This document shows positions 33,720 through 64,000 of a DNA stretch of 64,000 bases, one piece after another. The stretch lies in the IMG/VR virus record IMGVR_UViG_3300045988_173816, positions 220,027-284,026 of that record, one strand, 5' to 3'. How positions within the stretch are numbered: position 1 is the stretch's first letter; every line of letters starts with the position of its first letter. The stretch is from a virus. The position numbers and the translations under genes were made by a program. The notes beneath the pieces are model-generated. The model worked only from the letters and a program-made list of their open reading frames with translations. It did not search any database and was not told where the DNA came from.

Positions 33720-33860
33720 ATAGGTCACTACCGTGGGTTACACGGGAAGTTAAGTTTGTGGACTGTTATATCAAATGAAAGTAGACTTTGCAGTTCAAAC
33801 TGTAAAGACAAAATCAGACAGGATGAAGCAAGAAAAGTTCTAAAATAATTTAGAAAGGTC

Positions 33861-47570: not shown

Positions 47571-48734
47571 TTGGGAACAGTAAAATTTTCGAATAAAGAC
47601 AGTCAAAATATCTTGTTATTAGAGTTATCTAAGAAAGAGAAATTGGACGGTTCTATTTATCAACAACTGCTTTCTAGTGGTTTCTTATATAGTGTTCCTA
47701 TTCAGTACAATGAGAAAAAACAGATGGTTCGATATGATTTAACAGGTTTGATTTCTCTAAAGGTACGTCTAGGTTCTGCAATTACGATTGACGAGTTTTA
47801 TTTACTGTTAGCTAATCTTTATCATTCCTTCTTAGAGTTAGTAAACAACTTAGGTGTACATCCTTCTTTGTTAGATTGGTCACCAGATTTGATTTTCTTG
47901 GATGTAAAAGGGAATATTTACTTCACAGTGTATCCTCTGGTGACAAAGACTGTTGAAGGTAGTGGTTATTTTCATTTAGTGAGAACTCTAATTACAAAAG
48001 CTAAACCATTTCAATCTGTGGATAATCAAGGTTTAGAAAGATTGAGAGGTTTTTTACAAGCGGTTGAAACTGGTGCTTCGGACAGTGAATCTTTCATTTA
48101 CAATTTAGGTTTGGAGTCTTTGAAATATAAGTCTGAGAACTTAGGTGATTATCAGTCTCCTCAATTGAAGTTGATTTTAGAGGGTGTTGAAAGTATTGAA
48201 GAAGAGCTTAAACCAGAGGTGATAACTGAGGTTGTAGGTGGGGTTGAGTTGGATTTAACTCACTTAGACACTGAGATGATGGAACGCACAGGTTTGTTAG
48301 ATACTTCCTCAGATGATGATTTGGAACACACCACTATGTTAGAGGGTGATGAAGGTCAAGTAGCGCACTCTATTGGGTATCTTCTTCGTTCCAATGGTGA
48401 TTCTTTTGAATTAGATAGTCGTAGTGGTGTTGATACTTGGGTATTTGGTAAAAGACCTAAGTTTGTTTCAAGTGCTGAGTTAGGTTTTTCTTTGTCTGAT
48501 AATAAATTTATCTCAGGGACTCATTTTAGAGTAATTTATGAAGAAGATGAAGATAGATTCTACGTTGAAGATTTGGGTTCTACAAATGGTACATGGTTGA
48601 AAGACTCGACTTCTCAAACTTCGACTTGGTTAGATTCTGAACGTTTAAGTTTAGGAAAACCTAAGATTATTAAAAATGGTGACACTATTCGTATTGCAAA
48701 AGAGGAAGTGCAATTTAAAGTGAAAGAGGTTTAA
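47571..48734 (+). CDS. FHA-domain protein
   Basis: C-terminal WVFGKRP....ISGTHFRV....YVEDLGSTNGTWL....GDTIRIA is a canonical FHA signature. The linker carries DDDLEHTTMLEGDEG. Confidence 0.8.
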   Translation: MGTVKFSNKDSQNILLLELSKKEKLDGSIYQQLLSSGFLYSVPIQYNEKKQMVRYDLTGLISLKVRLGSAITIDEFYLLLANLYHSFLELVNNLGVHPSLLDWSPDLIFLDVKGNIYFTVYPLVTKTVEGSGYFHLVRTLITKAKPFQSVDNQGLERLRGFLQAVETGASDSESFIYNLGLESLKYKSENLGDYQSPQLKLILEGVESIEEELKPEVITEVVGGVELDLTHLDTEMMERTGLLDTSSDDDLEHTTMLEGDEGQVAHSIGYLLRSNGDSFELDSRSGVDTWVFGKRPKFVSSAELGFSLSDNKFISGTHFRVIYEEDEDRFYVEDLGSTNGTWLKDSTSQTSTWLDSERLSLGKPKIIKNGDTIRIAKEEVQFKVKEV

Positions 48735-48735
48735 A

Positions 48736-49506
48736 GTGAGACTAGAATATTATTCCGATAGAGGTGGTTATAACGGTACGTCTCGTGTGCGTGGTTACCG
48801 TGAGCACAATGAAGATACAATTGGTTGTTTTCAATTGGATTTAAAAGGTCAGTCTGCATTACCAATTTATGTTTTAGTTGTTTGTGATGGTATGGGTGGA
48901 GGAGTTCGAGGTAAATACGCTTCGTCATTGACTGTTCAAGCAATTAAGTCTGTGGTTGGTTCAATTACACCATTTGATGAAGATGATGTTGATTTACTTC
49001 GTTTAGTACAGAAAGAAGTTTCAAAGGGTATCCGTAAAGCTCACATGCGCTTGTGTGCAGAGTACGAAAACAAGTCAACGTGTGCAACCACTTGCTCGGT
49101 TGCTATTGTACAAGGCTTTGAGTATTGTACTATTCAAATTGGAGACACAAGGGTTTATGAATTAAGTAGTCAAGGGTTGACTTTGAAAACAGAGGATGAC
49201 TCTTGGGCTTTTAATAAATTGAAATCAGGTGAAATGACTGAAGCTGAAGTTCGAGTTCATAAGAATAGACACATGATTACAAAAGCAGTGGGGGTTTACC
49301 GAGGTTTTCGATTGCAAGAGTCTGATGTTTATACTTTACAAACAGGTTCGGGTATCCTAGTTACCTCAGATGGTTTCTCGGAGTTGTTAACAGAACAAAA
49401 GGCTAAGTTAATTTGGTCTAAGGAAAACCAACTAGAGTCTATGTCTAAGATGATGGTTGGCGAAGGTCAAAAAGACAATATTTCGGCAATTTTTTATATG
49501 CCTTAA
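48736..49506 (+). CDS. PP2C-family Ser/Thr phosphatase
   Basis: RGYREHNEDT, VVCDGMGGG and LVTSDGFSE...DNISAI motifs. Confidence 0.8.
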   Translation: MRLEYYSDRGGYNGTSRVRGYREHNEDTIGCFQLDLKGQSALPIYVLVVCDGMGGGVRGKYASSLTVQAIKSVVGSITPFDEDDVDLLRLVQKEVSKGIRKAHMRLCAEYENKSTCATTCSVAIVQGFEYCTIQIGDTRVYELSSQGLTLKTEDDSWAFNKLKSGEMTEAEVRVHKNRHMITKAVGVYRGFRLQESDVYTLQTGSGILVTSDGFSELLTEQKAKLIWSKENQLESMSKMMVGEGQKDNISAIFYMP

Positions 49507-49547
49507 TATCGGTTTTATTAAGTAACAGTAGAAGTAGGTAGCAGTAA

Positions 49548-50564
49548 ATGACGATTGATATTAAAACTTTAGGTAGAAAACAAGGCTCATTCCTTTTGCA
49601 AGGTATGAGTGTGGGTAAAACTCGCAACGATTCAGATATGTTGCAAGGTTCTATTATTGTACGAGGTGGAGACTTTGTTCGCTTTGTCTGTTTCGACAAT
49701 TTGATTGTGTCTCAGTTTAAAGACAATGGAGTTACCAGTATTTATGTAAGTGATGGTGATGTAACTATTCAAGAGTACAATGATAACTTGTCAGCTAAGT
49801 TAGAAGGTATTCGTAGCTTGTCTTCGGACTACAACCCTGCTGAGTTTATGGAAGTTATTGATCCAAGTAAAAATGCTCATGAAATTGGCGCTTTGGTTCG
49901 CAGATTGATGACGGAGAAAGGCGCCCAGTTGACTTTACACATGTTGAGTGATAGAGGAAAAGAATTGAGTGTTGCAATGGCAGCTCAATACGGAGGGTAT
50001 CATGATGGCAAAGTTGGTGGTTTATTAAACCATATTCGTAAGCTCTTGCGTTATGCTGAGGTTGCTATGACTGAATACGAACTCCTCCACACTATGAGTC
50101 CAGAAGAGCGAGATTTGGTAATTTTGGGCTTGGTAGTTCATGATTTTGGTAAGATTTTGGAATTGAAAAACGGTGCTTATACTGAGATTTCGATTGTACC
50201 TCATACTTATTTAGGGATTGAGATTATTTCTAAGTACAAAGACTTGATTGAGCAGACTTACAATGAAATGTTTTACCGTGAATTACAAGCAATTATTTTA
50301 GAGCACCACGGAGAGTTTGGGGAACGCCCTAAAACCGTCTACGCTTACCTAGTTCATGTTATTGATTTGCTTGATTCAAGGGTATCCGGACTTCAACGAA
50401 AAGTTGAAGGGTTGGAGTTAGGTGACTCTACCTTGGTTTCCTTTGATAATTATAAATTGCAGTTTAATCGTTATGATACAAGTAATACAGGAGCGTTCCC
50501 ACAAGCACCTAAGTCAAGTTCTGTTGCCCCTATTTCAGAAGAAAACTCTGAAACTGTTGATTAG
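49548..50564 (+). CDS. YhaM-like OB-fold + HD-domain phosphohydrolase/3'-5' exonuclease
   Basis: N-terminal OB-like GSFLLQGMSVGKTRNDSDMLQGSIIVRGGDFVRFVCFD. HD motifs LVVHDFGKI and ILEHHGEFGERP. Confidence 0.55.
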   Translation: MTIDIKTLGRKQGSFLLQGMSVGKTRNDSDMLQGSIIVRGGDFVRFVCFDNLIVSQFKDNGVTSIYVSDGDVTIQEYNDNLSAKLEGIRSLSSDYNPAEFMEVIDPSKNAHEIGALVRRLMTEKGAQLTLHMLSDRGKELSVAMAAQYGGYHDGKVGGLLNHIRKLLRYAEVAMTEYELLHTMSPEERDLVILGLVVHDFGKILELKNGAYTEISIVPHTYLGIEIISKYKDLIEQTYNEMFYRELQAIILEHHGEFGERPKTVYAYLVHVIDLLDSRVSGLQRKVEGLELGDSTLVSFDNYKLQFNRYDTSNTGAFPQAPKSSSVAPISEENSETVD

Positions 50565-50585
50565 ATTTTAAGTTTGTGGTACAAT
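50557..50585 (+). promoter_or_regulatory. SigA-type promoter-like sequence (TTGATT-17-TACAAT, TG-extended)
   Basis: -35 at 50557-50562 overlaps the stop of the upstream gene; -10 at 50580-50585, preceded by TGG. Followed within about 20 nt by a terminator hairpin. Confidence 0.4.
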
Positions 50586-50603
50586 ACCATTAAGTAGAAA
50601 AGT

Positions 50604-50627
50604 AAGAGGATTTAATATCCTCTTTTT
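50604..50627 (+). terminator. intrinsic terminator / leader hairpin
   Basis: AAGAGGAT/ATCCTCTT 8-bp stem, 5-nt loop and T-run. Confidence 0.6.
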
Positions 50628-50657
50628 CGTTGATTACAACGAGATTGTAGTAAGAAG

Positions 50658-51263
50658 GTGTTTGATATGTTTGAAAAAGAGAGGGTAATACCTAGAAAAG
50701 CATTGTATTTTTTAATAGGTTTTATGTTTCTATTTGTAATTATTTTGGTCTTACTAGCTAGTTATTTCAGTCCAGTTAAAGAGATTGCACCTAGTCAAGA
50801 TCAGGAACGCCAACAAACGATTGCGAAGGGTGTAACAGACAAGGATTTATCTTTTGACCAACTACCAAGTATCAACTCGGTATCTGAAAGTTCGCCAACT
50901 ACTGATTTTTTGTATACGAAAGAATATCAGTTAAGTCGTTTGGAGAATAAATACAAGTTATCGGAGTTAGATTCTGTTTTAACTAAGCTGGGTGAAGAAT
51001 TTACTTTAGTACAACCTGTAGGTAAAATTGAAGGTGATTCTAATTTAGTTACTTTTCGTTCTCCGAACTATGAGTTGACTTATTCTTTAACTAAAGGTTT
51101 GGTTGGGGTTGGCTATAAAGGTTCTGTAAAGTTGGATCAAGTAGTTCCAAAGTTGTTTGGAGGTAAACAAGTCCAAGAATTAGAGAGCAAAGGTTACGCT
51201 AAAGAAGAGACAACTAAGACAGGGTATCATTACTTTGCACACCCTAAGTTTCAGTTAAATTAG
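50658..51263 (+). CDS. membrane-anchored hypothetical protein
   Basis: GTG start after AAGAAGG. N-terminal TM ALYFLIGFMFLFVIILVLLASYF. Confidence 0.5.
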   Translation: MFDMFEKERVIPRKALYFLIGFMFLFVIILVLLASYFSPVKEIAPSQDQERQQTIAKGVTDKDLSFDQLPSINSVSESSPTTDFLYTKEYQLSRLENKYKLSELDSVLTKLGEEFTLVQPVGKIEGDSNLVTFRSPNYELTYSLTKGLVGVGYKGSVKLDQVVPKLFGGKQVQELESKGYAKEETTKTGYHYFAHPKFQLN

Positions 51264-51275
51264 AAAGGGGAATCT

Positions 51276-52550
51276 ATGAGAAAACAAATTGCGTTATTAA
51301 GTTTATGTAGTATTGTGTTAAGTAGTTCTCCTTTTATGTTGAACTCTACACGTGTGTTAGCAGAGGAGAATAAACCAAGTCAAACTCAAAGTGTGGTGTT
51401 AAAGACTTTGGAGAGAGAAAAAGCTGAGGTAAAAACACAAGCTGAGAGGGTTGGTTTCTTACCAAGTGTCCTTATGGCTCTTTGGGTTCGAAACACTGAT
51501 TTTGGACTAAATCCAAGTGCGTTTTCGGTATCCGATTTTGTATCGGAATTGGTAAATAGTGATTCAGAGTTAGCTCAGAGGTTATTAGAAACAGGTAGCG
51601 CTGATGAAGCAGTTGCTTTGTTGTTTAAGTATAAGTATAGCAATGAGAATGATTTTGTAGGTTCTATGAACTCTGCTCTGTCTTTATCTTATGTAAAAGG
51701 TTTAGATAAAGAACTTTATTATAACGGTGTTAAACCTTTATACGATAAAAGTGAATTAAAGACTGGGAAACAACACAGACTGTCTTGGGTATCTTTAAAT
51801 CAAGATGCAGATTTACCCAGTGAACAGTTAGAATCTAAAGCCGATAGTTCTCTGGCTTTTGAAAGGGTTGGCGAAAAGCGTTTAGCTGAGAGTGGTGAAG
51901 TACGTTTTTTACTACCAACTGAGAATAAACATTGGTGGGAGTTTTGGAAAAAGGGGTTGTCTGAGAGTAAGATAACTTTTGAAAAGGAAACGGTTAACGC
52001 CCCTCAAAATGTTCTAGCTATTGCAAGTGTGTTTGCTAAGAAGTTAGGTTGGTCTTTTGACGGTGCTGGTACAGTTAAGACTTCTAATGGTTTATATGCA
52101 GTTGGTTCAGACAGTCAAAAAGTGCTTGTGAACAAGTTGGGTAAAGTTGTAGCAGTTTGGACAAAAGAAGCAAAACCTTATGGTTTTGAAGGGGTTCAAC
52201 AGATTGTTAAAGGTGCTAATGGGTATCTCACAATCGGTTTACGTTCAAGCAGTTTGTTAGAAGATACACCAAGTGTTGAGTTTGTTTTGAATAAAGAAGG
52301 TAAAGTAGATACAAACTTGTTACAACTCAGCTCAACTGAGAAGGTTGTAGGTACATTTACCTTATATGATGTAGGAACTCGTTATGTAGTTGTTGAAGAT
52401 AGTTCAACAGATACTTATAAAGTTCTCTCAGAATTTGGCGGACAAGTCGGTTCCTCAAATAAAGACGATATTAAAGGTGGAAACTTGGAGGATTTAGCAG
52501 TTTACACTCCAATTAAAACGGAGGTAGGTGTTCTATGGCTTCAAGTTTAA
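51276..52550 (+). CDS. secreted hypothetical protein
   Basis: Signal-peptide-like MRKQIALLSLCSIVLSSSPFMLNSTRVLAEE. Confidence 0.55.
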   Translation: MRKQIALLSLCSIVLSSSPFMLNSTRVLAEENKPSQTQSVVLKTLEREKAEVKTQAERVGFLPSVLMALWVRNTDFGLNPSAFSVSDFVSELVNSDSELAQRLLETGSADEAVALLFKYKYSNENDFVGSMNSALSLSYVKGLDKELYYNGVKPLYDKSELKTGKQHRLSWVSLNQDADLPSEQLESKADSSLAFERVGEKRLAESGEVRFLLPTENKHWWEFWKKGLSESKITFEKETVNAPQNVLAIASVFAKKLGWSFDGAGTVKTSNGLYAVGSDSQKVLVNKLGKVVAVWTKEAKPYGFEGVQQIVKGANGYLTIGLRSSSLLEDTPSVEFVLNKEGKVDTNLLQLSSTEKVVGTFTLYDVGTRYVVVEDSSTDTYKVLSEFGGQVGSSNKDDIKGGNLEDLAVYTPIKTEVGVLWLQV

Positions 52551-53779
52551 AGAAGAGATTGTTGTCTGGTGCTTTACTAGGTGCTACGATACTAACATTA
52601 AGTGGTTCGGTATCCTCAGTCTTTGCAGGTTATACTAATGTTGAGGATATTTCAGAGGATGGTTGGAAAACTATTCGAGGAGCAGCAAAGAAAGCAAAAG
52701 AGTTAGGTATTTCTCCAGAAGCTTTCTCTGGGATGATGGGGAACGCCAATGAGGAGTCTTCCTTCGATGCCACTTTGGAAGAAGCAGGGAATGTAGCTAG
52801 TAGAGGTCTTGGTTTATTCCAGTGGACAGATACTAGTGGGAGTCCTCGAAGAACCCAATATGAAAATTGGGTGAAAGAGAAGGGGTATGACATTAAAGAC
52901 CCAGCTACTGCAGGTGCAGCTTCTATTGAGTACATGAATGAGGAGATGCAAGGAAATTCCGATTTTGGTGCCGGTTTTTGGTCTAGTTATATTCATGGAA
53001 TTTGGGGTAGAAGTGACTTAAATCAAACTTCTAAAAGTTATGATGAATTTAAAAAGGCAAAAGATGTAAAGGGTGCAACTTATGACTTTGTAGCTGCTTT
53101 TGAGAGACCCGCAGCCGATACTTTAGATAAACGAGCTAAAATGGCAGAAGCTATTTATGAGAAAATCAAAGATGAATATGGTACTTCAAACGGAGACGAC
53201 AGTTCAAGCTCTAAGAAGAAAGAGTCGGTATCAGACAATTTGAAACGTTGGTCTGAGGAAGATATTCCGAACATGCCTAAAGACCGTGACTATGGTAAAG
53301 AGGAACGTGGTTTCAAAGATCGTATTGATAAGATTGAGAAGTTAAAAGGTGATGAAGCCACAAGTATTGCTAAGTGGAAAGAAGAACGTGATGTTTCTAT
53401 TCAACGAAGAACGATTAAAGGTACTCGTTTAGTTGTAATGGTGCTTTCTATGATTGCTTTGGTGTATCCTTCATTCTTGCTATTTGCTTATGTGTTTGAC
53501 TCATGGTTTGTTTATGTGGACAGTCCAGCTATGCGTTTAGTAACTTTTAACCGTAGAGCTATTGAGCAGAACAGAAATGGCTCTGGTGGTTTATGGTTTG
53601 CAGACAAGAAAGAAAATGCTCGTTTGAAGACAAAACGTTTAGGTTTAGGAGATACTTTGATTTGGGCTGCAATTTTCAGTATTGTAGGTGTAGCTGGTGT
53701 CTCTGGGTTAATGTATGAAACTGCGGGAAGTATTTGGCAGTTTATTGCAGATTCTTGGGGATATTTTCTCAATGGTTAG
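52535..53779 (+). CDS. secreted lysozyme-like (phage-tail-lysozyme fold) cell-wall hydrolase with C-terminal TM segments
   Basis: Signal peptide. GMMGNANEESSFDATLEE...GLGLFQWTDTSG..R resembles the Phage_lysozyme2/lytic-transglycosylase-like motif (recollection). Two C-terminal hydrophobic segments. Confidence 0.55.
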   Translation: MASSLKKRLLSGALLGATILTLSGSVSSVFAGYTNVEDISEDGWKTIRGAAKKAKELGISPEAFSGMMGNANEESSFDATLEEAGNVASRGLGLFQWTDTSGSPRRTQYENWVKEKGYDIKDPATAGAASIEYMNEEMQGNSDFGAGFWSSYIHGIWGRSDLNQTSKSYDEFKKAKDVKGATYDFVAAFERPAADTLDKRAKMAEAIYEKIKDEYGTSNGDDSSSSKKKESVSDNLKRWSEEDIPNMPKDRDYGKEERGFKDRIDKIEKLKGDEATSIAKWKEERDVSIQRRTIKGTRLVVMVLSMIALVYPSFLLFAYVFDSWFVYVDSPAMRLVTFNRRAIEQNRNGSGGLWFADKKENARLKTKRLGLGDTLIWAAIFSIVGVAGVSGLMYETAGSIWQFIADSWGYFLNG

Positions 53780-53800
53780 AAGAGTTAGGAGTAGATTAGA

Positions 53801-55477
53801 TTGGTTAGAAGTGGATCAGTTAAAACGTATTTAAAAGAGGGTGACATCATTGACAAGTCTTGGGAAGTGATTAAGAAGATTGGTCAAGGTGGGACTGCAA
53901 CTGTTTATTTGGTTCGAGATATTGAATTGAATCGGTATCTTGCATTGAAAGAGGTTCCAGTAAGAAATACTGCGAAGGGTAAGTTACAAGCTAAAGCAGT
54001 TATTGCTGAGATTAGCTTGTTAAAAACCTTGAGTCACCCTTCCATTCCTCGTATTATCAAAATGACTCATGATGCTCATTCAATTTTGATTATTATGGAC
54101 TATATTGATGGTTATTCTTTGCGAGATATTATTCGTAAGAAGAATTATATTCCAGAGTCTATGATTATTCAGTGGGGTGTAGCTTTGTGTAAAACCTTGC
54201 GTTATTTACATAATCATGAGCCTAAGATTATTTATCGAGATTTAAAACCACATAATGTCATGATTACAAATGAAAATCATTTGTACCTTATGGACTTCGG
54301 TATCGCAAAAGAGGTTACGCCTAATTTTGATTATAGTAAAGAACCAAAGTTGGGTACATTAGGTTTTGCAGCACCTGAGATGAGTGCTGATGCAGCATGG
54401 TTTGATGAGCGTTCAGATATTTTTGCTTTAGGTAGAACTTTATTTTTCTTAGCGACTAGAAATAGTCCTTCTGTTACACACATGCCAGATGGTACGCCTA
54501 TTCCGATTTTACCGATTCGACAATATGATTCATCTCGTTCAGTTGGTTTAGAAAAGATTATTCTGAAATGTACGGAGAAAAACCCGGAAGACCGGTATCA
54601 AACGATAGATGAAGTTCTTTATGATTTAGAGCATATTGATGAAATGTCTGAAGGGTTCAGAGCTAAGATTAAGCGCAGAGCGAATATGATTTATTTGTTA
54701 TTTATAACTTTAGTTTTAGGTTTTGTGTTAGTTGGGGGTGGCTTATTATACAGTCGCATTTCTGTTGCAGATACTTATAAGCAAGCTTTAGCCGCAGGGA
54801 AAACCTCTCAGTCTATTGACTCATTGTTGAAGGCTAGTAGTATTGCGCCAAGTGAGGTTGAACCTTACTTAGAGATGGTGAAGATTTATCGAGCTAGTGG
54901 TCATTTTACGAGTGAAGATGAGTTTCAATTGCTGGGTGCTTTGCAAACAAATATTCCAAGTTTGAAGGGTAAAGAAGGTGCAGGAGACTTGCTTTATCAA
55001 GTAGGTCAGTTGTATTGGTTCTATTACCCACAGAACGGTCAAACAAAGTCAGTTTCTTGGTTTGAGCAAGCTAAAGAGTTTGGGGTATCTAAAAAGAATG
55101 CACACTTACTTTCAATTTATTTGGAACTTGGTACATTCAAGAAAGGTATTTTAAGTTCGATTACAGACAACTCTGATAGTGGTATGTATAAGACTTATTG
55201 GGACGCTTTGAGCGAATTAGCAGTTGAAATGGGTGGTGACCCTCAGTTAGAGATTACTTATTTGGAGAGTGTCTTTGATGTAATTGACTCTTACTCAGGT
55301 GGTTTGAAGTCTGATGGTTTGACTTTAGAAGAGTTAACAGAAGTGTTTAATAAAGCAGTTGATTCGTTAAACTCTTATGAAGGTAAAACTGATGAGCAGA
55401 AGAAAACGAAGACTGAGTTACAATCGCGTGTAGATACAATTCGCAATAAGTTAAATACAACTTATGGTGTAAGATAG
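53801..55477 (+). CDS. Hanks-type Ser/Thr protein kinase with TM segment and non-PASTA extracellular domain
   Basis: GQGGTATVY, LALKEV, IIYRDLKPHNVMI, MDFGIAK, GTLGFAAPE. TM IYLLFITLVLGFVLVGGGLLY. No PASTA repeats seen in the C-terminal ~240 aa. Confidence 0.85.
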   Translation: MVRSGSVKTYLKEGDIIDKSWEVIKKIGQGGTATVYLVRDIELNRYLALKEVPVRNTAKGKLQAKAVIAEISLLKTLSHPSIPRIIKMTHDAHSILIIMDYIDGYSLRDIIRKKNYIPESMIIQWGVALCKTLRYLHNHEPKIIYRDLKPHNVMITNENHLYLMDFGIAKEVTPNFDYSKEPKLGTLGFAAPEMSADAAWFDERSDIFALGRTLFFLATRNSPSVTHMPDGTPIPILPIRQYDSSRSVGLEKIILKCTEKNPEDRYQTIDEVLYDLEHIDEMSEGFRAKIKRRANMIYLLFITLVLGFVLVGGGLLYSRISVADTYKQALAAGKTSQSIDSLLKASSIAPSEVEPYLEMVKIYRASGHFTSEDEFQLLGALQTNIPSLKGKEGAGDLLYQVGQLYWFYYPQNGQTKSVSWFEQAKEFGVSKKNAHLLSIYLELGTFKKGILSSITDNSDSGMYKTYWDALSELAVEMGGDPQLEITYLESVFDVIDSYSGGLKSDGLTLEELTEVFNKAVDSLNSYEGKTDEQKKTKTELQSRVDTIRNKLNTTYGVR

Positions 55478-59787: not shown

Positions 59788-60366
59788 ATGAAAAATGACG
59801 ATGTAGAAAAAATAAAGGAAGATTCTAAAGTTGAAGCGGGTTTCTTTCATAGTTGTTTAAATTGGATTAGTGTATTTGGTATCCTAGTAATTAGTTTACT
59901 GTTTTCTTTTAAACTTTTTTGTAATCCGATTTTAATTTTAGGGGACTCTATGAACCCTACTCTGCAGGATAATCAATTATGGTTTAGTAGAGCGAAACAG
60001 TTAGGAAAACCCAAGAAAACTGACATAGTGGTAGCTTATGAAGTTTTAACTCGAACTAAATTGGTAAAAAGGGTTGTTGCAACTGAAGGTGATGTTCTTA
60101 CTGTTTTGGATTCAGGATTGTATGTAAATCGTTCTTTAGTTGATAAATCTAAGGAGACTATGGGTCTAATTGAAGATAAATCTTCTTGGTTAGGTTCGAA
60201 TAAAGGTTTATCTGTAACTTTGCAAGAGGGGGAATATTTTTTATTAGGGGATAATCGAGAAAATTCAAATGACTCAAGAGATTTGGGTATCTTCCCGGAC
60301 TCGACTATTTCTTCAGTTTTAACTGTTGAAGCTCCAAATTTTTTACGAGATTTATTAGTTAGATAG
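59788..60366 (+). CDS. type I signal peptidase (S26 family)
   Basis: GDSMNPTL (Ser), VKRVVATEGD (Lys) and GDNRENSNDSRD boxes. N-terminal TM. Confidence 0.8.
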   Translation: MKNDDVEKIKEDSKVEAGFFHSCLNWISVFGILVISLLFSFKLFCNPILILGDSMNPTLQDNQLWFSRAKQLGKPKKTDIVVAYEVLTRTKLVKRVVATEGDVLTVLDSGLYVNRSLVDKSKETMGLIEDKSSWLGSNKGLSVTLQEGEYFLLGDNRENSNDSRDLGIFPDSTISSVLTVEAPNFLRDLLVR

Positions 60367-60414
60367 TTTGATTTAATAAATTTTAGAGACTTTATAAATC
60401 TCAGAAACCTTATT

Positions 60415-60457
60415 AAATCAAGGTTTTCTACTTGAAGTTATATAAAATCAAGGTTTT
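60415..60457 (+). repeat. 13-nt direct repeat AAATCAAGGTTTT x2, 30 bp apart, upstream of the HU promoter
   Basis: Copies at 60415-60427 and 60445-60457. Confidence 0.45.
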
Positions 60458-60480
60458 TGAAACTTTTTTGCACAAAACTG

Positions 60481-60509
60481 TTGACAGAATAGGGTTTGTG
60501 TGATATAAT
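60481..60509 (+). promoter_or_regulatory. SigA-type promoter (TTGACA-17-TATAAT, TG-extended)
   Basis: -35 at 60481-60486 and -10 at 60504-60509, preceded by TGA. Confidence 0.7.
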
Positions 60510-60560
60510 GTTTATTGTAAGTTAGCAAAACAGCTAACGAATAAAGAAAGGAGCCAACAA

Positions 60561-60836
60561 ATGGCTAATAAAAAAGATTTGATCGCTAAAGTAGCAGAAG
60601 CTACAGAATTGACTAAGAAAGATTCAGCAGCAGCAGTAGACGCTGTATTCGCAGCAGTAGCTGATTTCCTTGCAGCTGGTGAAAAAGTTCAATTGATTGG
60701 TTTTGGTAACTTTGAAGTGCGTGAACGTGCAGAACGTCAAGGTCGCAACCCACAAACAGGTGCACCTCTTACAATCGCTGCTTCAAAAGTACCAGCGTTT
60801 AAAGCAGGTAAAGTTCTTAAAGACGCTGTTAAATAA
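60561..60836 (+). CDS. hup: HU-family DNA-binding protein
   Basis: [30 protein letters not shown]...[21 protein letters not shown]...KVPAFKAGK. Near-identical over long stretches to streptococcal HU as I remember it. AAAGGAG RBS. Confidence 0.9.
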
Positions 60837-60892
60837 GAATTAACTTTCAAGTTACACGCTTCTATCAAAAAAAATACCTAAGTAATTAGGTT

Positions 60893-60943
60893 AGCTGGGG
60901 TTGCTACCGGATGTTTTCAGTGAGTTGGATTCTCACTCTAGCT
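60893..60943 (+). ncRNA. tRNA-like minihelix 1 (acceptor-like stem + T-arm-like hairpin, no anticodon arm)
   Basis: AGCTGGG...TCTAGCT closing stem (2 G-T). GTGAG-TTGGATT-CTCAC hairpin. The interior shares GTTGCT...GATGTT with minihelix 2. Confidence 0.3.
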
Positions 60944-61245
60944 ATTGCGAGTTTTCTCGCAAAGATGGATAAAAAACATTTTATCATTCCTGATTTAGCA
61001 CTCCGTTTGCGCGGTGCAGTCTAGTCAGGCATAACTATAAGTTGGGCGAAACCGAATAGTTCAACTTGTAGGCTGTAAGTTAACGACTTTTCTTACAGCG
61101 TCTCCGAATTGTCTGGGTCGGTTTTTAAGTAAAGATGTGTTGTTGGTAGATGTTGGTTAGCATTCCAACTTCTCGTAGGACACGAAGGGTATCAGACGCT
61201 CTAAGAAATGCCAAATTCTTTAAGATTTTGGATTCTGCATCTTTC

Positions 61246-61294
61246 ACAAGTGGTCAAGTTGCTGATGTTATGAGGTTGGACTCCTCACACTTGT
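61246..61294 (+). ncRNA. tRNA-like minihelix 2 (49 nt)
   Basis: ACAAGTG / GTCA-AGTTGC-TGAT / GTTA / TGAGG-TTGGACT-CCTCA / CACTTGT: a 7-bp closing stem, a 4-bp D-arm-like hairpin and a 5-bp T-arm-like hairpin with a 7-nt loop. Confidence 0.4.
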
Positions 61295-61441
61295 TTAGTA
61301 AAGTTTTAATGACTTTACTAATACCTTTGTTCATGTTAATGAACACCTCCGATGGAAATTGTGACTCTAGTGTGGTTTATTTTCTCCACATTTCGATGGT
61401 TTAGTTTCACGAATCATGTGCTAGTGCGTTTCATGCGTACA

Positions 61442-61490
61442 ACAAACGGTCTAGTTGCAGACTTGATGGGGTTGGAGTCCTCACGTTTGT
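61442..61490 (+). ncRNA. tRNA-like minihelix 3 (49 nt)
   Basis: ACAAACG / GTCT-AGTTGC-AGAC / TTGA / TGGGG-TTGGAGT-CCTCA / CGTTTGT. Same architecture as minihelix 2, with compensatory changes in both stems. Confidence 0.4.
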
Positions 61491-61595
61491 GTTGAGGGAT
61501 ATCCCTCAAATAGAAATCGGGATTTGTTTTTACAGACAAATCTTTCTTATACTTGTAGACCTAAAGATTTGGCGATGGTTGGGTCTACGTTTCAA

Positions 61596-61679
61596 GCGTG
61601 GATGGCGAAATTGGCAGACGCACACGGTTTAAGCTCGTGCGAACTTTGGTTCATGGGGGTTCAAGTCCCCCTCTGCGCA
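61596..61679 (+). tRNA. tRNA-Leu (anticodon TAA), class II
   Basis: Acceptor GCGTGGA/TCTGCGC, anticodon arm CACGG-TTTAAGC-TCGTG, variable hairpin GAAC-TTTG-GTTC, T-arm GGGGG-TTCAAGT-CCCCC. No encoded CCA. Confidence 0.85.
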
Positions 61680-61785
61680 TACCTTAACTGAAAAAGAAGA
61701 AGTAAACGCATAAAGCAATCCCAAGCGGACTATGTGTGCGGAAATTGATTTCCGTTTGAAATTCGGTTAGGGTTTTCAGTATAAA

Positions 61786-61861
61786 GGTTCCATAGCTCAA
61801 TTGGATAGAGCACACGCCTTCTAAGCGTGGGGTTTTGTAGGTTCGAACCCTACTGGAATCA
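61786..61861 (+). tRNA. tRNA-Arg (anticodon TCT)
   Basis: Acceptor GGTTCCA/TGGAATC, D-arm GCTC-AATTGGATA-GAGC, anticodon arm CACGC-CTTCTAA-GCGTG, T-arm GTAGG-TTCGAAC-CCTAC. Atypical 7-nt variable loop. Confidence 0.8.
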
Positions 61862-62160
61862 TTAGCTTTAGGTGTAAACCTACATCATTATCTTTCTGAC
61901 GACACATAATGGAAGTGTAGTTTCTTGAACAGTGACAAAGCGTTTAAGGAATCAAAAATGATGAATTTGTAACTATTTTCCCGCTCGAATCAATGAACTA
62001 GAGCGACAATAACGATGATGAAGTGTAGCTGACTTTTGAGTTAGTGTGAAGGGGTGGTAGCAAAACGGATGATTGTGTGGAGGAGCTTTTCAGTGTTAGG
62101 TTCGAAACTAATAAGAAAAGTGATGGACACGTTTTGGATAGTTACATAATGCTATATTTA

Positions 62161-62233
62161 GAACTGATAACTCAGTTGGTAGAGTAGCGGACTTTTAATC
62201 CGTTGGTCGCAGGTTCGAGCCCTGCTCGGTTCA
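62161..62233 (+). tRNA. tRNA-Lys (anticodon TTT)
   Basis: Acceptor GAACTGA/TCGGTTC, D-arm ACTC/GAGT, anticodon arm GCGGA-CTTTTAA-TCCGT, T-arm GCAGG-TTCGAGC-CCTGC. Confidence 0.85.
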
Positions 62234-62767
62234 TGCCGGGAAGATTGTTTTGAAGTAATTCATGGCAATTTAGGTTTAACGACTGTAAAAGGTCGCTAAA
62301 TCATTATAGCACAAGCGTAGTGTGCAACCACTATGTGAGTGCTTGAGATTCTTACTTAGTTAAGTAAGAACGCCTAAGTAGAAGGCTAATCTTCTACTAA
62401 CGCTCCTCAGCGATACGAGGTGACGACAACGGTTCGATTAGCGGGCTTAAAGCTAGTCAGATAAGGTTGGTGAGGTTTACTGCGCTCCAAGTCCAAGCAA
62501 TATGCGTGTGGAAAGGTATAGAGTTCTCCTTTTTCAGTAAATCAAGATTAAAACTCAGTTGCAAAACGGTGGAGACAGTTCCACTTATGGGTATCAAAAC
62601 TGTCGTAGAAGCCGTTTTTAAAATCCGATTGCTTTAGATGTCTAGGGTATAAAGCAATAAAACGCACGACAATTCCTATCTTACTAGACAGGGTAGGAAG
62701 TCAAAAACTTGTGGGTTCAACGGTTCTCCCACATAAGATACCAGAGCTGTTAAGGGTATCATATTTA

Positions 62768-62841
62768 GGTGCGATAGCTCAGTTTGGTAGAGCGTTGGAT
62801 TGAAGCTCCATGCGTCGGCGGTTCGATTCCGTCTTGCACCA
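62768..62841 (+). tRNA. tRNA-Phe (anticodon GAA)
   Basis: Acceptor GGTGCGA/TTGCACC, D-arm GCTC/GAGC, anticodon loop TTGAAGC, T-arm GGCGG-TTCGATT-CCGTC. Confidence 0.85.
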
Positions 62842-62867
62842 TAACCGATTAGGGGGTTTTTCCTTTA

Positions 62868-62940
62868 GACTCGGTAGCTCAGTTGGGAGAGCATCTGTCT
62901 TACAAGCAGAAAGTCATTGGTTCGAACCCAGTCCGAGTCA
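62868..62940 (+). tRNA. tRNA-Val (anticodon TAC)
   Basis: Acceptor GACTCGG/CCGAGTC, anticodon arm TCTGT-CTTACAA-GCAGA, T-arm ATTGG-TTCGAAC-CCAGT. Confidence 0.85.
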
Positions 62941-63250
62941 TAACTAACTATTCTCTTAGCGCGCAGATTTTAGTTAGTGGAACCTGTTCTTGTTTTCGAA
63001 ATGTTTAATTTTAGTTTTAGGAACAGACATCCATAAAAGACAAAAAGAACAAGAAACAAACGAAACGCGTTCGTTTACAAACTTTGGTTTATTTTGAACT
63101 TGTTTTAATCTGATACCTCTTTTGTCAATGGGTATCGAATGAAAAAAAAATCAAGTTTCGCTTCTATTTAAACCAAACTCTTCCTTATGTTACTTTCGTT
63201 TAATTAGTAGTTGTCAGCTTCTTACCGAACGGGTACATTAGGGAGTTCAA

Positions 63251-63323
63251 TCCACCATAGCTCAGTTGGTAGAGCACTCGACTGTTAATCGAGTTGTCAC
63301 TGGTTCGAGACCAGTTGGTGGAG
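63251..63323 (+). tRNA. tRNA-Asn (anticodon GTT)
   Basis: Acceptor TCCACCA/TGGTGGA, anticodon arm CTCGA-CTGTTAA-TCGAG, T-arm ACTGG-TTCGAGA-CCAGT. Confidence 0.85.
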
Positions 63324-63783
63324 TTCCATTGTGAGATGGAAGATTAAACTATTTTAATTAGAGAGTTATTGTACACTTAGTCTAACTCTCATCAAGAACC
63401 ACGATGGGATTTGTATAGAATATTTAGTACCCTCTAATTAAAATTTTAGAATCGTAGGGGCTACGAGGATAGCTTGGTTTATTTGCATAACCTATGGGGA
63501 CTAATCAGTTAGTTTTCTAAGTCAGTGTATTACCCAAGAAACTTTTACTTGTAATAGACAACATAGGTAGGAGTAGTTCACATTCTGATTACCACCGATA
63601 GCATGGTGCTTATGTTTGGGTCATGGCTTACGTAGACGAGCCGGTAAATCAGCGGAGTTCTTCTTTTGAAGAGTTGTTCGAATCCTTGCGGTGGTATTAG
63701 TTTTTGTGCCACAACGGCGTGCAACGCTTGAGAGAGGGTTGCAGAAGTTCTTAGAGCAAGTTTTTGCTCTTCGTATTTTTTAT

Positions 63784-63858
63784 CGGAATTTAGCGCAGTT
63801 TGGTTAGCGCACGTGTTTTGGGAACACGGGGTCGCAAGTTCGAATCTTGTCTTTCCGA
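63784..63858 (+). tRNA. tRNA-Pro (anticodon TGG), weak acceptor stem
   Basis: D-arm GCGC/GCGC, anticodon arm CGTGT-TTTGGGA-ACACG, T-arm GCAAG-TTCGAAT-CTTGT. Acceptor CGGAATT/CTTTCCG has two mismatches at its base, but the flanking AT/AT extend pairing outward. Confidence 0.6.
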
Positions 63859-63863
63859 TATAA

Positions 63864-63937
63864 GTACCTTTAGCTTAGATGGTTAAAGCTCTCGGCTCAT
63901 AACCGAGTGACCGTAGGTTCGAGTCCTGCAAGGTACA
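63864..63937 (+). tRNA. tRNA with CAT anticodon (elongator Met or Ile2)
   Basis: Acceptor GTACCTT/AAGGTAC, D-arm GCTT/AAGC, anticodon arm CTCGG-CTCATAA-CCGAG, T-arm GTAGG-TTCGAGT-CCTGC. Lacks initiator features. Confidence 0.8.
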
Positions 63938-63947
63938 TTAAAGTTAT

Positions 63948-64000
63948 GGAAGATTACCCAAGTCTGGCTATAAGGGGACGGTCTTGAAAACCGTTAGGTC
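63948..64000 (+). tRNA. tRNA-Ser (anticodon TGA), 3'-truncated by the window edge
   Basis: GGAAGATTACCCAAGTCTGGCTATAAGGGGACGGTCTTGAAAACCG matches the 5' two-thirds of class II tRNA-Ser(UGA). Confidence 0.7.

What the first reader, a model, noticed from the sequence alone, without database searches (positions are those of the whole stretch)
60893..61490. Family of 49-51-nt tRNA-like minihelices lacking an anticodon arm, with compensatory base changes
- **Two matching elements.** Two 49-nt elements have identical architecture:
  - 61246-61294: ACAAGTG|GTCA-AGTTGC-TGAT|GTTA|TGAGG-TTGGACT-CCTCA|CACTTGT.
  - 61442-61490: ACAAACG|GTCT-AGTTGC-AGAC|TTGA|TGGGG-TTGGAGT-CCTCA|CGTTTGT.
- **Covariation.** The 7-bp closing (acceptor-like) stem differs at two positions with exact compensation (AGTG/CACT versus AACG/CGTT). 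The small D-arm-like stem also covaries (GTCA/TGAT versus GTCT/AGAC), while its AGTTGC loop is conserved.
- **Third member.** A more divergent copy (60893-60943) has the same closing stem plus a GTGAG-TTGGATT-CTCAC hairpin, and shares GTTGCT...GATGTT with the second element.
- **Context and shape.** All lie just upstream of the tRNA array and inside a region with no credible ORF. They resemble tRNAs reduced to acceptor, D and T arms.
- **Possible roles (speculative).** CCA-adding or RNase P/Z substrates, decoys for tRNA-targeting nucleases, primers, or processing signals.
- **Novelty.** I am not aware of such elements being described.
Basis: seen in the sequence. Interest (0 to 1): 0.7.

Follow-up and report, generated by a model that had tools for sequence, protein, structure and literature searches.

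The report
Anticodon-less tRNA mimics in a jumbo phage
A group of uncultivated giant phages carries small, strongly conserved RNA elements that look like tRNAs with the anticodon arm removed; they sit at the borders between a gene, structured RNAs and the phage's tRNA genes, and most likely tell the host's tRNA-trimming enzymes where to cut a long transcript.

Summary
Elements A (61246-61294) and B (61442-61490) are 49-nt three-way junctions: a 7-bp closing stem, a 4-bp D-like arm and a 5-bp T-like arm.

- **Family.** A covariance model finds the same element in about 50 viral and metagenomic loci. Most lie on contigs of 100-290 kb (one of 477 kb). None was found in 185,579 bacterial or archaeal genomes, in GenBank phages or in Rfam.
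- **Structure.** Across 37 distinct sequences, 99.2% of pair cells are paired and 9 of 16 pairs change on both sides.
- **tRNA resemblance.** The T loop is UUGRANU on a G:C closing pair. The D-like loop always ends in GC. This fits a tRNA elbow whose G19:C56 pair is swapped to C:G.
- **Element C.** C (60893-60943) is a related but different 51-nt four-armed mini-cloverleaf.
- **Context.** Every element is followed at once by a hairpin of variable sequence. None encodes CCA, and each has U after the discriminator, as the phage's true tRNAs do. The elements bracket a conserved ~300-nt pseudoknotted RNA, between an HU gene with the region's only consensus promoter and the tRNA array.

Best reading (about 50%): tRNA-mimic punctuation marks cut by RNase P and RNase Z. 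Function is untested. This is a new variant of a known kind.

The parts
60481..60509 (+). Consensus sigma-70-type promoter (TTGACA, 17 nt, TATAAT with TG) upstream of the HU gene. It is the only 12/12 match in 60300-64000.
   Evidence: The same promoter sequence is present in relative L089.
60561..60836 (+). HU-type DNA-binding protein gene, the upstream neighbour of the RNA unit.
   Evidence: ORF. Annotated HU homologues. 80 related loci recovered with it.
60876..60891 (+). Hairpin ACCTAA-gtaa-TTAGGT, ending 1 nt before element C. Candidate 3'-terminal stem of the HU mRNA after cleavage.
   Evidence: Read from the sequence. Some relatives have hairpins of unrelated sequence at the same place.
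60893..60943 (+). Element C, a 51-nt mini-cloverleaf. It has a 7-bp closing stem, a GU/AC arm with loop UGCU, a 3-bp arm with a 4-nt loop, and a 5-bp T-like arm with loop UUGGAUU.
   Evidence: Fold. Five distinct orthologues are 100% paired, with 6 pairs changed on both sides. Only 9.2 bits with the A/B model.
60945..60962 (+). Hairpin TTGCGAG-tttt-CTCGCAA, starting right after the discriminator A60944 of element C.
   Evidence: Read from the sequence. Conserved position with variable sequence in relatives.
60945..61245 (+). Conserved ~300-nt structured RNA between C and A. It has a long-range helix 61111-61116 with 61192-61197, and a closing helix 61131-61139 with 61236-61244 that ends 1 nt before element A.
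   Evidence: Alignments. The long-range helix has 8 distinct hexamer pairs, all 6/6 paired. No Rfam match.
61246..61294 (+). Element A, a 49-nt anticodon-less tRNA mimic: ACAAGTG | GTCA-AGTTGC-TGAT | GTTA | TGAGG-TTGGACT-CCTCA | CACTTGT.
61295..61321 (+). Hairpin directly after element A (an 11-bp stem in the minimum-free-energy fold, including discriminator U61295).
   Evidence: All 37 distinct family contexts scored have a stem of at least 7 bp starting 0-2 nt after the discriminator.
61295..61441 (+). 147-nt structured spacer RNA between A and B (z = -3.6). CCUCC at 61346-61350 is unpaired.
61442..61490 (+). Element B, the second 49-nt anticodon-less tRNA mimic: ACAAACG | GTCT-AGTTGC-AGAC | TTGA | TGGGG-TTGGAGT-CCTCA | CGTTTGT.
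61492..61509 (+). Hairpin TTGAGGG-atat-CCCTCAA directly after discriminator G61491 of element B.
61491..61595 (+). 105-nt structured spacer (z = -4.0) between B and tRNA-Leu.
61596..63937 (+). Array of 8 tRNA genes (Leu-UAA, Arg-UCU, Lys, Phe, Val, Asn, Pro, Met). All lack an encoded CCA. Long structured spacers lie between them.
   Evidence: In the related arrays, U follows the discriminator in 171 of 188 distinct tRNA contexts.

Best explanation
**What A and B are.** They are RNA elements on the + strand that copy the half of a tRNA read by the tRNA end-processing enzymes.
- The 7-bp acceptor stem stacks on a 5-bp T arm, giving a 12-bp helix.
- A small D-like hairpin caps the T loop to form a tRNA-type elbow.
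- The anticodon arm and the two-base linker at positions 8-9 are absent, so the elements cannot decode.

**How they most likely work.** They appear to be transcribed from the consensus promoter in front of the HU gene, as part of one long precursor: HU mRNA, element C, the ~300-nt structured RNA, element A, a 147-nt RNA, element B, a 105-nt RNA, then tRNA-Leu and the rest of the array. Host RNase P would cut at the 5' side of each mimic. Host RNase Z would cut after its discriminator base. This is what happens at the true CCA-less tRNAs further along.

**Predicted outcome.** The mimics act as punctuation where no real tRNA sits. They free the HU mRNA with a 3' hairpin. They free each downstream RNA with a hairpin at its very 5' end, a feature that protects against 5'-end-dependent decay in Firmicutes-type hosts.

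**Shown here.** The structure, its conservation, its strand, its positions, the obligatory 3' hairpin and the shared trailer signature.

**Inferred only.** Co-transcription, the elbow contact, cleavage by RNase P and RNase Z, and any CCA addition to the released 50-nt species.
For: **Structure.**
- 99.2% of cells are paired, 9 of 16 pairs change on both sides, and 0 of 500 shuffles reach the observed values.
- RNAalifold predicts the same junction de novo inside a 430-column alignment of the whole unit.

**tRNA-type features.**
- Stems are 7 + 5 bp with no linker between the T arm and the acceptor 3' strand.
- The closing pair is G:C, as G53:C61 in tRNA.
- The loop is U54-U55-N-R57-A58-N-U60.
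- The D-like loop always ends in GC.

**Elbow.** The pair equivalent to 19:56 is complementary in every class seen.
- True tRNAs: G and C.
- A/B and window-type C: C and G.
- The main-clade 5' element: A and U.
- A third 49-nt kind in L211: G and C.
- The elbow's flat 19:56 face is what RNase P contacts by stacking. RNase Z and CCA-adding enzymes also bind the elbow (PMC4810234).

**Processing signature.**
- No CCA is encoded, and U follows the discriminator in all minihelix contexts.
- U follows it in 171 of 188 true-tRNA contexts of the same arrays.
- CCA is the main antideterminant of RNase Z (PMC4919913).

**Position.**
- The elements sit at fixed borders in all relatives: HU gene, 5' element, structured RNA, minihelix, tRNA-Leu.
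- There is one consensus promoter and no terminator between HU and the array.

**Flanks.**
- A stem of at least 7 bp starts 0-2 nt after the discriminator in 37 of 37 distinct contexts. The figure is 20% at random positions and 41% at true tRNAs. At least eight unrelated hairpin sequences are used.
- Helices close 1-4 nt upstream of the elements.

**Precedents.**
- Plant mitochondrial t-elements are cut by RNase P and RNase Z to make mRNA ends (PMC1920247).
- MHV68 TMERs are a tRNA-like element followed by hairpins released by tRNase Z (PMC4838037).
- Established knowledge, not tested here: acceptor-T-arm minihelices are substrates of RNase P, RNase Z and CCA-adding enzyme.
Against: - No transcript or cleavage data exist for these phages.
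- The elements are conserved in sequence as strongly as real tRNAs: 83% against 84-86%, with flanks at 34-53%. Acceptor pairs 2:71 and 7:66 are nearly invariant. This is more constraint than a purely shape-based cleavage signal needs, and it hints at a sequence-specific partner or a function of the released RNA.
- Stable helices lie 1-4 nt upstream, and a hairpin starts 0-2 nt downstream. These could hinder RNase P, which binds a single-stranded leader, and RNase Z, which threads a single-stranded trailer.
- Local hairpins upstream of the elements are not enriched by the simple measure used.
- The host and its RNase set are unknown.
Confidence: 0.5

Rival explanations
1. The ~50-nt mimics are themselves the functional product. 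Once released, and probably CCA-tailed, they bind or are modified by a factor that reads the acceptor stem and elbow of tRNAs. Candidates are a synthetase, a CCA-adding or repair enzyme, a host toxin or defence nuclease that targets acceptor ends, or a phage enzyme. They would act as a decoy, an inhibitor or a non-ribosomal substrate. This is compatible with processing by RNase P and RNase Z.
For: - Sequence conservation equals that of true tRNAs, while flanks diverge to 34-53%.
- Acceptor pairs 2:71 and 7:66 are nearly invariant.
- The GC in the D-like loop and the UUGRA in the T loop are nearly invariant.
- The window and several relatives carry two copies.
- The swapped 19:56 pair could serve to avoid some tRNA-binding partners while keeping others (inference).
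Against: - No partner is identifiable. None of the 40 window ORFs of at least 149 aa that were scanned has a tRNA-related Pfam domain.
- No constant synthetase identity set is present. G3:U70 occurs in only 3 of 37 distinct sequences.
- With no anticodon loop, the element cannot distract anticodon nucleases.
- This reading does not explain the fixed border positions or the obligatory 3' hairpin.
Confidence: 0.22
2. The mimics are not cut out. They are built-in domains of one large multi-domain phage RNA running from element C to A, or on to tRNA-Leu. They would serve as tRNA-like end caps that protect the RNA, or as T-loop/elbow modules for tertiary or intermolecular docking, as T-loops do in RNase P RNA, rRNA and T-boxes.
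For: - C and A bracket a conserved ~300-nt RNA that has a covarying long-range helix.
- The closing helix of that RNA ends 1-4 nt before element A, and a hairpin starts right after the discriminator. The acceptor stem is therefore wedged between helices.
- All spacers are strongly structured, with z from -3.6 to -4.1.
Against: - The elements keep exactly the tRNA measures that processing enzymes read: 7 + 5 bp, the G53:C61-like pair, a discriminator followed by U, and no CCA.
- The number of A/B copies varies between relatives, one or two, without loss of the rest.
- Similar anticodon-less elements occur elsewhere in related arrays, next to ordinary tRNAs and an ORF.
- No match to GOLLD, ROOL or other large RNA families.
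Confidence: 0.2
3. They are decaying tRNA pseudogenes, or tRNA gene fragments that lost the anticodon arm by deletion, with no present function.
For: - They lie in front of a tRNA array.
- Other reduced tRNA-like sequences occur in related arrays.
- tRNA fragments are common in prokaryotic genomes (PMC9897764, listed but not read).
Against: - Pairing is kept through compensatory changes in all three helices.
- Identity is 83% where the neighbouring non-coding DNA is 34-53%.
- Position is the same in dozens of contigs.
- A constant hairpin partner has a free-running sequence.
- A likely origin from tRNA genes is not excluded. Present neutrality is.
Confidence: 0.03
4. The similarity is a DNA-level feature, such as a recombination or protein-binding site, or it is a chance inverted repeat.
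For: The elements contain inverted repeats, and two copies lie 196 nt apart.
Against: - 45 of 592 pair cells are G.U on the + strand. They would be mismatches on the other strand or in a cruciform.
- There were no descriptor hits in shuffles.
- No copies exist in bacterial genomes that could act as attachment partners.
Confidence: 0.02

Closest known systems
Plant mitochondrial t-elements (tRNA-like processing signals)
   Same: - Both are non-decoding tRNA-like folds with an acceptor stem and a T arm.
- Both sit at the borders of other RNAs inside long precursors.
- t-elements direct RNase P and RNase Z cleavage that creates mRNA 5' and 3' ends, and the excised element can receive C/A additions (PMC1920247).
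- This is the same logic proposed here.
   Different: - t-elements keep the canonical GGTTCRANYCC T arm and irregular cloverleaves, and they are organellar.
- The phage elements are a tight 49-nt family with no anticodon arm, G at position 56 with C in the D-like loop, and an obligatory 3' hairpin.
- Cleavage is shown for t-elements and not for the phage elements.
MHV68 TMERs (herpesvirus tRNA-like element followed by pre-miRNA hairpins)
   Same: - Both are virus-encoded, non-decoding tRNA-like elements followed directly by stem-loops.
- tRNase Z separates the tRNA-like part from the hairpins (PMC4838037).
- The module 'tRNA mimic plus adjacent hairpin' is the same.
   Different: - TMERs are eukaryotic RNA polymerase III units with full cloverleaves, and their hairpins feed Dicer.
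- The phage elements lie in a bacterial-type polycistronic setting, and their hairpins head longer structured RNAs.
mascRNA / MALAT1 and MEN-beta tRNA-like structures
   Same: A tRNA-like structure inside a long non-coding transcript is cut by RNase P to form the 3' end of the upstream RNA, and by RNase Z to release a small tRNA-like RNA that receives CCA (established knowledge).
   Different: - Those structures are mammalian, nuclear and four-armed cloverleaves.
- There is no sequence relation.
tRNA-like domain of tmRNA
   Same: - It has an acceptor stem, a T arm and a reduced D region, with no anticodon arm.
- RNase P and the CCA machinery process it.
- Related phages of this clade carry a tmRNA gene in the same array.
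   Different: - In tmRNA the place of the anticodon arm is taken by a long helix leading to the tag reading frame, and G3:U70 directs alanylation.
- A and B are closed 49-nt modules with a 4-nt linker and A3:U70 in most copies.
- Neither ARAGORN nor Rfam reports a tmRNA match.
Canonical tRNA (Rfam RF00005) and synthetic acceptor-T-arm minihelices
   Same: - Both have the 7 + 5 bp coaxial helix, a G53:C61-like pair and U54, U55, R57 and A58.
- Both have a 4-bp D-like stem, a discriminator, and a CCA-less trailer starting with U, like the phage's own tRNAs.
- Laboratory minihelices are substrates of RNase P, RNase Z and CCA-adding enzyme (established knowledge).
   Different: - The phage elements have no anticodon arm and no 8-9 linker, and 19:56 is swapped to C:G.
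- They are not detected by the tRNA model or by ARAGORN.
- Unlike synthetic minihelices, they keep a D-like arm.
GOLLD and ROOL large RNAs (often next to tRNA genes in phages)
   Same: They are structured non-coding RNA next to phage tRNA genes. This applies to the ~300-nt RNA flanked by C and A.
   Different: - There was no match to either Rfam model at E <= 10 in the window or at E <= 1 in five relatives.
- The size and motifs differ.

Membership tests
Canonical tRNA (RF00005) | 7-bp acceptor stem continuous with a 5-bp T stem and a 7-nt T loop (G53:C61, U54, U55, R57, A58) | tested here: met
   Pair table and distinct sequences. Stems are 7 and 5 bp with no linker. The closing pair G:C is invariant. 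The loop is UUGRANU.
Canonical tRNA (RF00005) | Anticodon arm (5-bp stem, 7-nt loop) | tested here: not met
   Only a 4-nt linker (3 nt in one lineage) lies between the D-like and T-like arms in A and B. C has a 3-bp stem with a 4-nt loop there.
Canonical tRNA (RF00005) | G18-G19 in the D loop and C56 in the T loop; U8-N9 linker | tested here: not met
   The D-like loop ends G-C and the T loop has G at position 56. There are no bases between the acceptor and D stems. The swap keeps complementarity.
Canonical tRNA (RF00005) | Score at or above the family threshold, or a call by a tRNA finder | tested here: not met
   - ARAGORN and Rfam report nothing at A, B or C, even at E <= 10.
- ARAGORN calls a tRNA only after a 2-nt linker and an anticodon arm are grafted in.
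- The scrambled controls were mixed, so that graft test is weak.
tRNA-like processing signals (t-elements, mascRNA type) | Non-decoding tRNA-like fold with an acceptor stem and a T arm | tested here: met
tRNA-like processing signals (t-elements, mascRNA type) | Located at borders of other RNAs within one precursor | tested here: inconclusive
   The border positions are conserved. There is one consensus promoter and no terminator-like site between HU and the array. Co-transcription is inferred from pattern scans only.
tRNA-like processing signals (t-elements, mascRNA type) | Transcript ends coincide with the element's ends; cleavage by RNase P and RNase Z | not testable with these tools
   No expression data or enzymes are available. 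Indirect support only: no CCA, and U after the discriminator as in the true tRNAs.
MHV68 TMER-type module | tRNA-like element directly followed by stem-loop(s) | tested here: met
   37 of 37 distinct contexts have a stem of at least 7 bp starting 0-2 nt after the discriminator, against 20% at random positions.
MHV68 TMER-type module | Internal RNA polymerase III promoter; hairpins are Dicer substrates | not tested
   These are eukaryotic features and were not examined. On the evidence here the elements belong to a phage clade with a bacterial-type promoter upstream of HU.
tmRNA (RF00023) | tRNA-like domain joined to a tag-peptide reading frame; G3:U70 | tested here: not met
   There is no tmRNA call at these sites. 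The elements are closed 49-nt modules. G3:U70 occurs in 3 of 37 distinct sequences.
GOLLD / ROOL | Match to the family covariance model | tested here: not met
   No match in 60800-64000 at E <= 10, or in five related loci at E <= 1.
T-loop motif (tRNA elbow) | Five-base U-N-N-R-A turn with positions 1 and 5 able to pair, capped by a base from a partner loop | tested here: inconclusive
   The sequence pattern is met, and the partner base is complementary in four element classes. Within the A/B family both positions never vary, so there is no covariation there. The three-dimensional contact cannot be tested.

The most novel reading that the evidence does not exclude
The 49-nt elements may be a new class of stand-alone 'half-tRNAs'. 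In this reading they are excised, CCA-tailed and used by the phage as acceptor-and-elbow mimics. They could trap or redirect a host factor that reads tRNA acceptor ends, such as a defence toxin, a synthetase or a repair or CCA enzyme. Alternatively they could carry an amino acid outside the ribosome. Another possibility is that they act as elbow-docking modules of a ~0.6-kb multi-domain phage RNA assembly. The swapped C19:G56 pair would then be a device to keep some tRNA partners and exclude others.
Probability: 0.2. Interest if true: 0.85.

Novelty: new variant of a known kind. Interest (0 to 1): 0.6.

Why it matters
- **Punctuation in a phage.** If correct, a bacterial virus would be using miniature tRNA mimics as punctuation to carve an mRNA, several structured RNAs and a tRNA array out of one transcript. 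That strategy is documented in plant mitochondria, mammalian nuclei and a herpesvirus, but I found no description of it for phage tRNA arrays.
- **A natural minimal substrate.** The elements have been trimmed to acceptor, T arm and a D-like cap, with the 19:56 pair reversed. They offer a ready test of what RNase P, RNase Z and CCA-adding enzymes need from the tRNA elbow.
- **Unannotated RNAs.** The elements flag RNAs that no database annotates. These are a ~300-nt pseudoknotted RNA and a string of highly structured spacers, so the long 'empty' stretches in jumbo-phage tRNA arrays may be arrays of released small RNAs.
- **Practical use.** The family gives a compact, naturally validated module (mimic plus hairpin) for tRNA-based multiplex RNA processing in Gram-positive hosts.

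Tried and rejected
- **Rfam.** At curated thresholds and at E <= 10 over 60800-64000, only the 8 tRNAs and chance-level hits appeared. Nothing matched A, B, C or the RNA between them. Five relatives gave the same result at E <= 1.
- **ARAGORN.** It makes no tRNA or tmRNA call at the elements.
- **Ribozymes.** I compared the junction by eye with the hammerhead core. CUGAUG occurs in A only and is not conserved in B. No self-cleaving ribozyme family matched in Rfam.
- **The ~300-nt RNA.** I considered RNase P RNA, tmRNA (including permuted forms), 6S and SRP for it. There was no Rfam match and no conserved core motif by eye.
- **Coding.** Small ORFs overlap the elements, but relatives differ by insertions and deletions across them.
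- **Terminators.** The T-like arms are picked up by the terminator scan only because the acceptor 3' strand is T-rich. No genuine terminator lies between HU and the array.
- **BLAST against GenBank phages.** A search with 60400-62400 against 50,697 phage records matched only HU and tRNA genes. A search with 60840-61600 matched nothing. The DNA polymerase has no relative above 30% identity. The clade has no sequenced cultured member.
- **GTDB genomes.** A pattern scan gave 3 hits, taken as chance matches. They are in Planctomycetaceae, Alistipes and Bacteroides, and none matches the model.
- **Loose viral scan.** The first pattern returned mostly chance or coding matches. Only 6 of 119 were true.
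- **Grafting test.** Adding an anticodon arm made ARAGORN call a tRNA, but the scrambled controls for B were also called. I count this as uninformative.
- **Literature.** Eight full-text searches found no description of anticodon-less tRNA mimics in phages.
Full report
**1. The observation.**
- A (61246-61294) and B (61442-61490) are 49 nt long and 78% identical.
- Both fold at minimum free energy into the same three-way junction: a 7-bp closing stem, a 4-bp stem with a 6-nt loop, a 4-nt linker, and a 5-bp stem with a 7-nt loop.
- Folding energy alone is unremarkable (z = -0.75 and -0.55). The case rests on comparison between sequences.
- A descriptor for this architecture finds only A and B on both strands of the 64-kb window, and nothing in 50 shuffles.
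- ARAGORN and Rfam see 8 tRNA genes downstream (61596-63937) but nothing at the elements, even at E <= 10.

**2. A family exists.**
- Pattern scans of viral contigs recovered true homologues, mostly on contigs of 100-280 kb.
- In every case the element lies about 100-150 nt upstream of a tRNA-Leu(UAA) gene that opens a tRNA array.
- A covariance model built from 8 sequences found the element in loci fetched through the neighbouring HU protein.
- It also found the element in 38 metagenome loci. The three pattern hits in 185,579 bacterial and archaeal genomes do not match the model.
- GenBank phages contain nothing similar to 60840-61600. The phage's DNA polymerase has no close cultured relative.
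- The family therefore belongs to an uncultivated clade of large phages.

**3. The structure is under selection.** The 50 confident matches give 37 distinct sequences.

| Measure | Value |
|---|---|
| Pair cells forming standard pairs | 99.2% |
| Pairs changed on both sides | 9 of 16, spread over all three helices |
| Shuffles reaching the observed values | 0 of 500 |
| Pairing when partners are slid by 1-3 columns | 31-57% |

- The alignment has essentially no gaps, so alignment fitting is not a concern.
- 45 of 592 pair cells are G.U. They would be A.C mismatches on the opposite strand, so this is a + strand RNA structure. The HU gene and the tRNAs are on the same strand.
- RNAalifold recovers the junction de novo from an alignment of the whole 430-nt unit.
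- The element is as conserved as the phage's real tRNAs and the HU coding sequence:

| Segment | Mean pairwise identity |
|---|---|
| Minihelix | 83% |
| True tRNAs (Leu, Arg) | 84-86% |
| HU coding sequence | 87% |
| RNA upstream of the minihelix | 53% |
| 60 nt downstream | 34% |

**4. How tRNA-like it is.**

*Kept from tRNA:*
- The 7 + 5 bp acceptor/T stack with no intervening base.
- An invariant G:C pair closing the T-like loop, as G53:C61.
- U54, U55, R57, A58 and a pyrimidine at position 60.
- A 4-bp D-like stem.
- A discriminator base and no encoded CCA.

*Missing:*
- The anticodon arm.
- The 8-9 linker.

*Changed:*
- Position 56 is G, and the D-like loop always ends G-C instead of G-G.
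- In tRNA, G18 contacts U55, and G19 pairs with C56 to form the flat outer face of the elbow. RNase P, RNase Z and CCA-adding enzymes all use that face (PMC4810234).
- The phage elements fit the same elbow with the outer pair reversed.

*The equivalent two positions are complementary in every class of element seen in the clade:*

| Element class | Position 19 | Position 56 |
|---|---|---|
| True tRNAs | G | C |
| A/B and window-type C | C | G |
| 5' element of the main clade (loops UGAN and UUUGAUU) | A | U |
| A further 49-nt anticodon-less element after tRNA-Asp in L211 | G | C |

This is suggestive, not proof. Within the A/B family both positions never vary.

**5. Element C.**
- C scores only 9.2 bits with the A/B model.
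- Its five distinct orthologues support a 51-nt four-armed mini-cloverleaf. It has a 3-bp arm with a 4-nt loop in the anticodon-arm position (100% paired, 6 pairs changed on both sides).
- In most relatives the element at this position is a 56-58-nt version with the T loop UUUGAUU.
- C is therefore a positional partner of A/B and a member of the same broad kind. It is not a member of the same family.

**6. Context.** All relatives share the same layout.
- The order is: HU gene, a 5' tRNA-like element, a hairpin, a ~300-nt conserved RNA, an A-type minihelix, a hairpin, then tRNA-Leu.
- The window and a few relatives add a ~150-nt RNA, a second minihelix (B) and a hairpin before tRNA-Leu.
- The ~300-nt RNA is a genuine structured RNA. 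A long-range helix (61111-61116 with 61192-61197) is kept in 8 distinct hexamer pairs, all 6/6 paired. Its closing helix shows a compensatory change in the window and ends 1 nt before A.
- That RNA matches no Rfam family.
- The spacers after A, after B and after tRNA-Leu fold far better than shuffles (z = -3.6 to -4.1).
- The only consensus promoter in 60300-64000 is in front of HU. No terminator-like site separates HU from the array.

**7. The hairpin partner and the trailer.**
- In 37 of 37 distinct contexts, a contiguous stem of at least 7 bp starts 0-2 nt after the discriminator.
- The figure is 20% at random positions and 41% for 188 true-tRNA contexts.
- At least eight unrelated stem sequences are used. 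The hairpin is therefore a selected part of the module.
- The base after the discriminator is U in all minihelix contexts, and in 171 of 188 tRNA contexts. CCA is never encoded.
- RNase Z handles CCA-less precursors, and CCA is its main antideterminant (PMC4919913).

**8. Most likely mechanism.**
- The elements present exactly what the tRNA end-processing enzymes measure.
- They carry the trailer signature of the neighbouring tRNAs.
- They sit at borders inside what looks like one transcription unit.
- They are flanked by helices that would become the protected ends of the neighbouring RNAs.
- I therefore read them as punctuation marks: RNase P cuts 5' of each, and RNase Z cuts after the discriminator. 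This releases the HU mRNA, the ~300-nt RNA and the spacer RNAs.
- The principle is established for plant mitochondrial t-elements (PMC1920247), for mascRNA, and for the herpesvirus TMERs, whose tRNA-like element is followed by hairpins released by tRNase Z (PMC4838037).
- I give this reading about 0.5.

*What weighs against it:*
- There are no expression data.
- Sequence conservation is higher than a shape-only signal needs.
- The flanking helices lie tight against the elements and might hinder the enzymes.

*Rivals:*
- The excised 50-nt RNA is itself the functional agent (0.22). This is compatible with processing.
- The mimics are uncut structural domains of a larger RNA (0.20).
- A neutral pseudogene (0.03) or a DNA-level repeat (0.02) is contradicted by the covariation and by the strand asymmetry.

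**9. Novelty and interest.**
- The concept of a tRNA-like processing element is known.
- Eight full-text literature searches, Rfam and GenBank phages show no description of this family. None shows a natural, conserved, closed acceptor/D/T module without an anticodon arm, or such elements in phage tRNA arrays.
- I classify it as a new variant of a known kind, and I rate interest at 0.6.
- The structure is solid and unusual, and the biology is testable. The function is inferred, and the likeliest function has precedents.

Noticed in passing
window 63590-63697 (+): A ~108-nt element is closed by TACCACCG/CGGTGGTA, with GTTCGAATCC near its 3' end and a possible anticodon-like loop UUUGGGU. It lies between tRNA-Asn and tRNA-Pro. 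ARAGORN and Rfam do not call it, yet it is 81-95% identical in more than 30 related loci. It is a conserved, odd tRNA-like RNA of unknown kind.
   Followed up: partly
window 60945-61245 (+): A conserved ~300-nt structured RNA between elements C and A has a covarying long-range helix (61111-61116 with 61192-61197; 8 distinct hexamer pairs, all paired). It has no Rfam match. It may be the main cargo of the unit.
   Followed up: partly
window 61346-61350 (+): An unpaired CCUCC, the complement of a Shine-Dalgarno GGAGG, lies in the 147-nt RNA after element A. CCTCC occurs within 130 nt after a minihelix in 14 of 39 distinct contexts, against 4.4% of background windows. The released spacer could be an anti-SD small RNA.
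   Followed up: partly
window 61491-61595 and 61680-61785 (+): The spacers between B and tRNA-Leu and between tRNA-Leu and tRNA-Arg fold far better than shuffles (z about -4). The second one pairs its own 5' and 3' ends and is conserved in relatives. The long tRNA-array spacers look like a series of discrete structured RNAs.
   Followed up: partly
L211 11058-11106 and L211 10264-10322: Related phages carry further anticodon-arm-less tRNA-like elements with canonical T loops. One is 49 nt, lies after tRNA-Asp and precedes an ORF. The other is 59 nt and lies before tRNA-Glu.
   Followed up: partly
L211 8434-8805; L148 10085-10273: Related phages encode a tmRNA inside the tRNA array (tag peptide ANNNAPVRMAA in L211). 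The window ends before the corresponding position.
   Followed up: no
window 31961-33834 (+): An IS607-type pair, a serine recombinase with a MerR domain (31961-32584) and TnpB (32538-33719), is followed at once by a RAGATH-18 RNA (33755-33834, 67 bits). A second TnpB-like ORF lies at 7276-8697.
   Followed up: no
window 47571-55477 (+): A cluster of signalling-type genes sits in the phage: an FHA-domain protein (47571-48734), a PP2C phosphatase (48736-49506), an HD-domain protein (49548-50564) and a eukaryotic-type Ser/Thr kinase (53801-55477). A HipA-like kinase domain lies at 30409-31215, and an S26 signal peptidase at 59788-60366.
   Followed up: no
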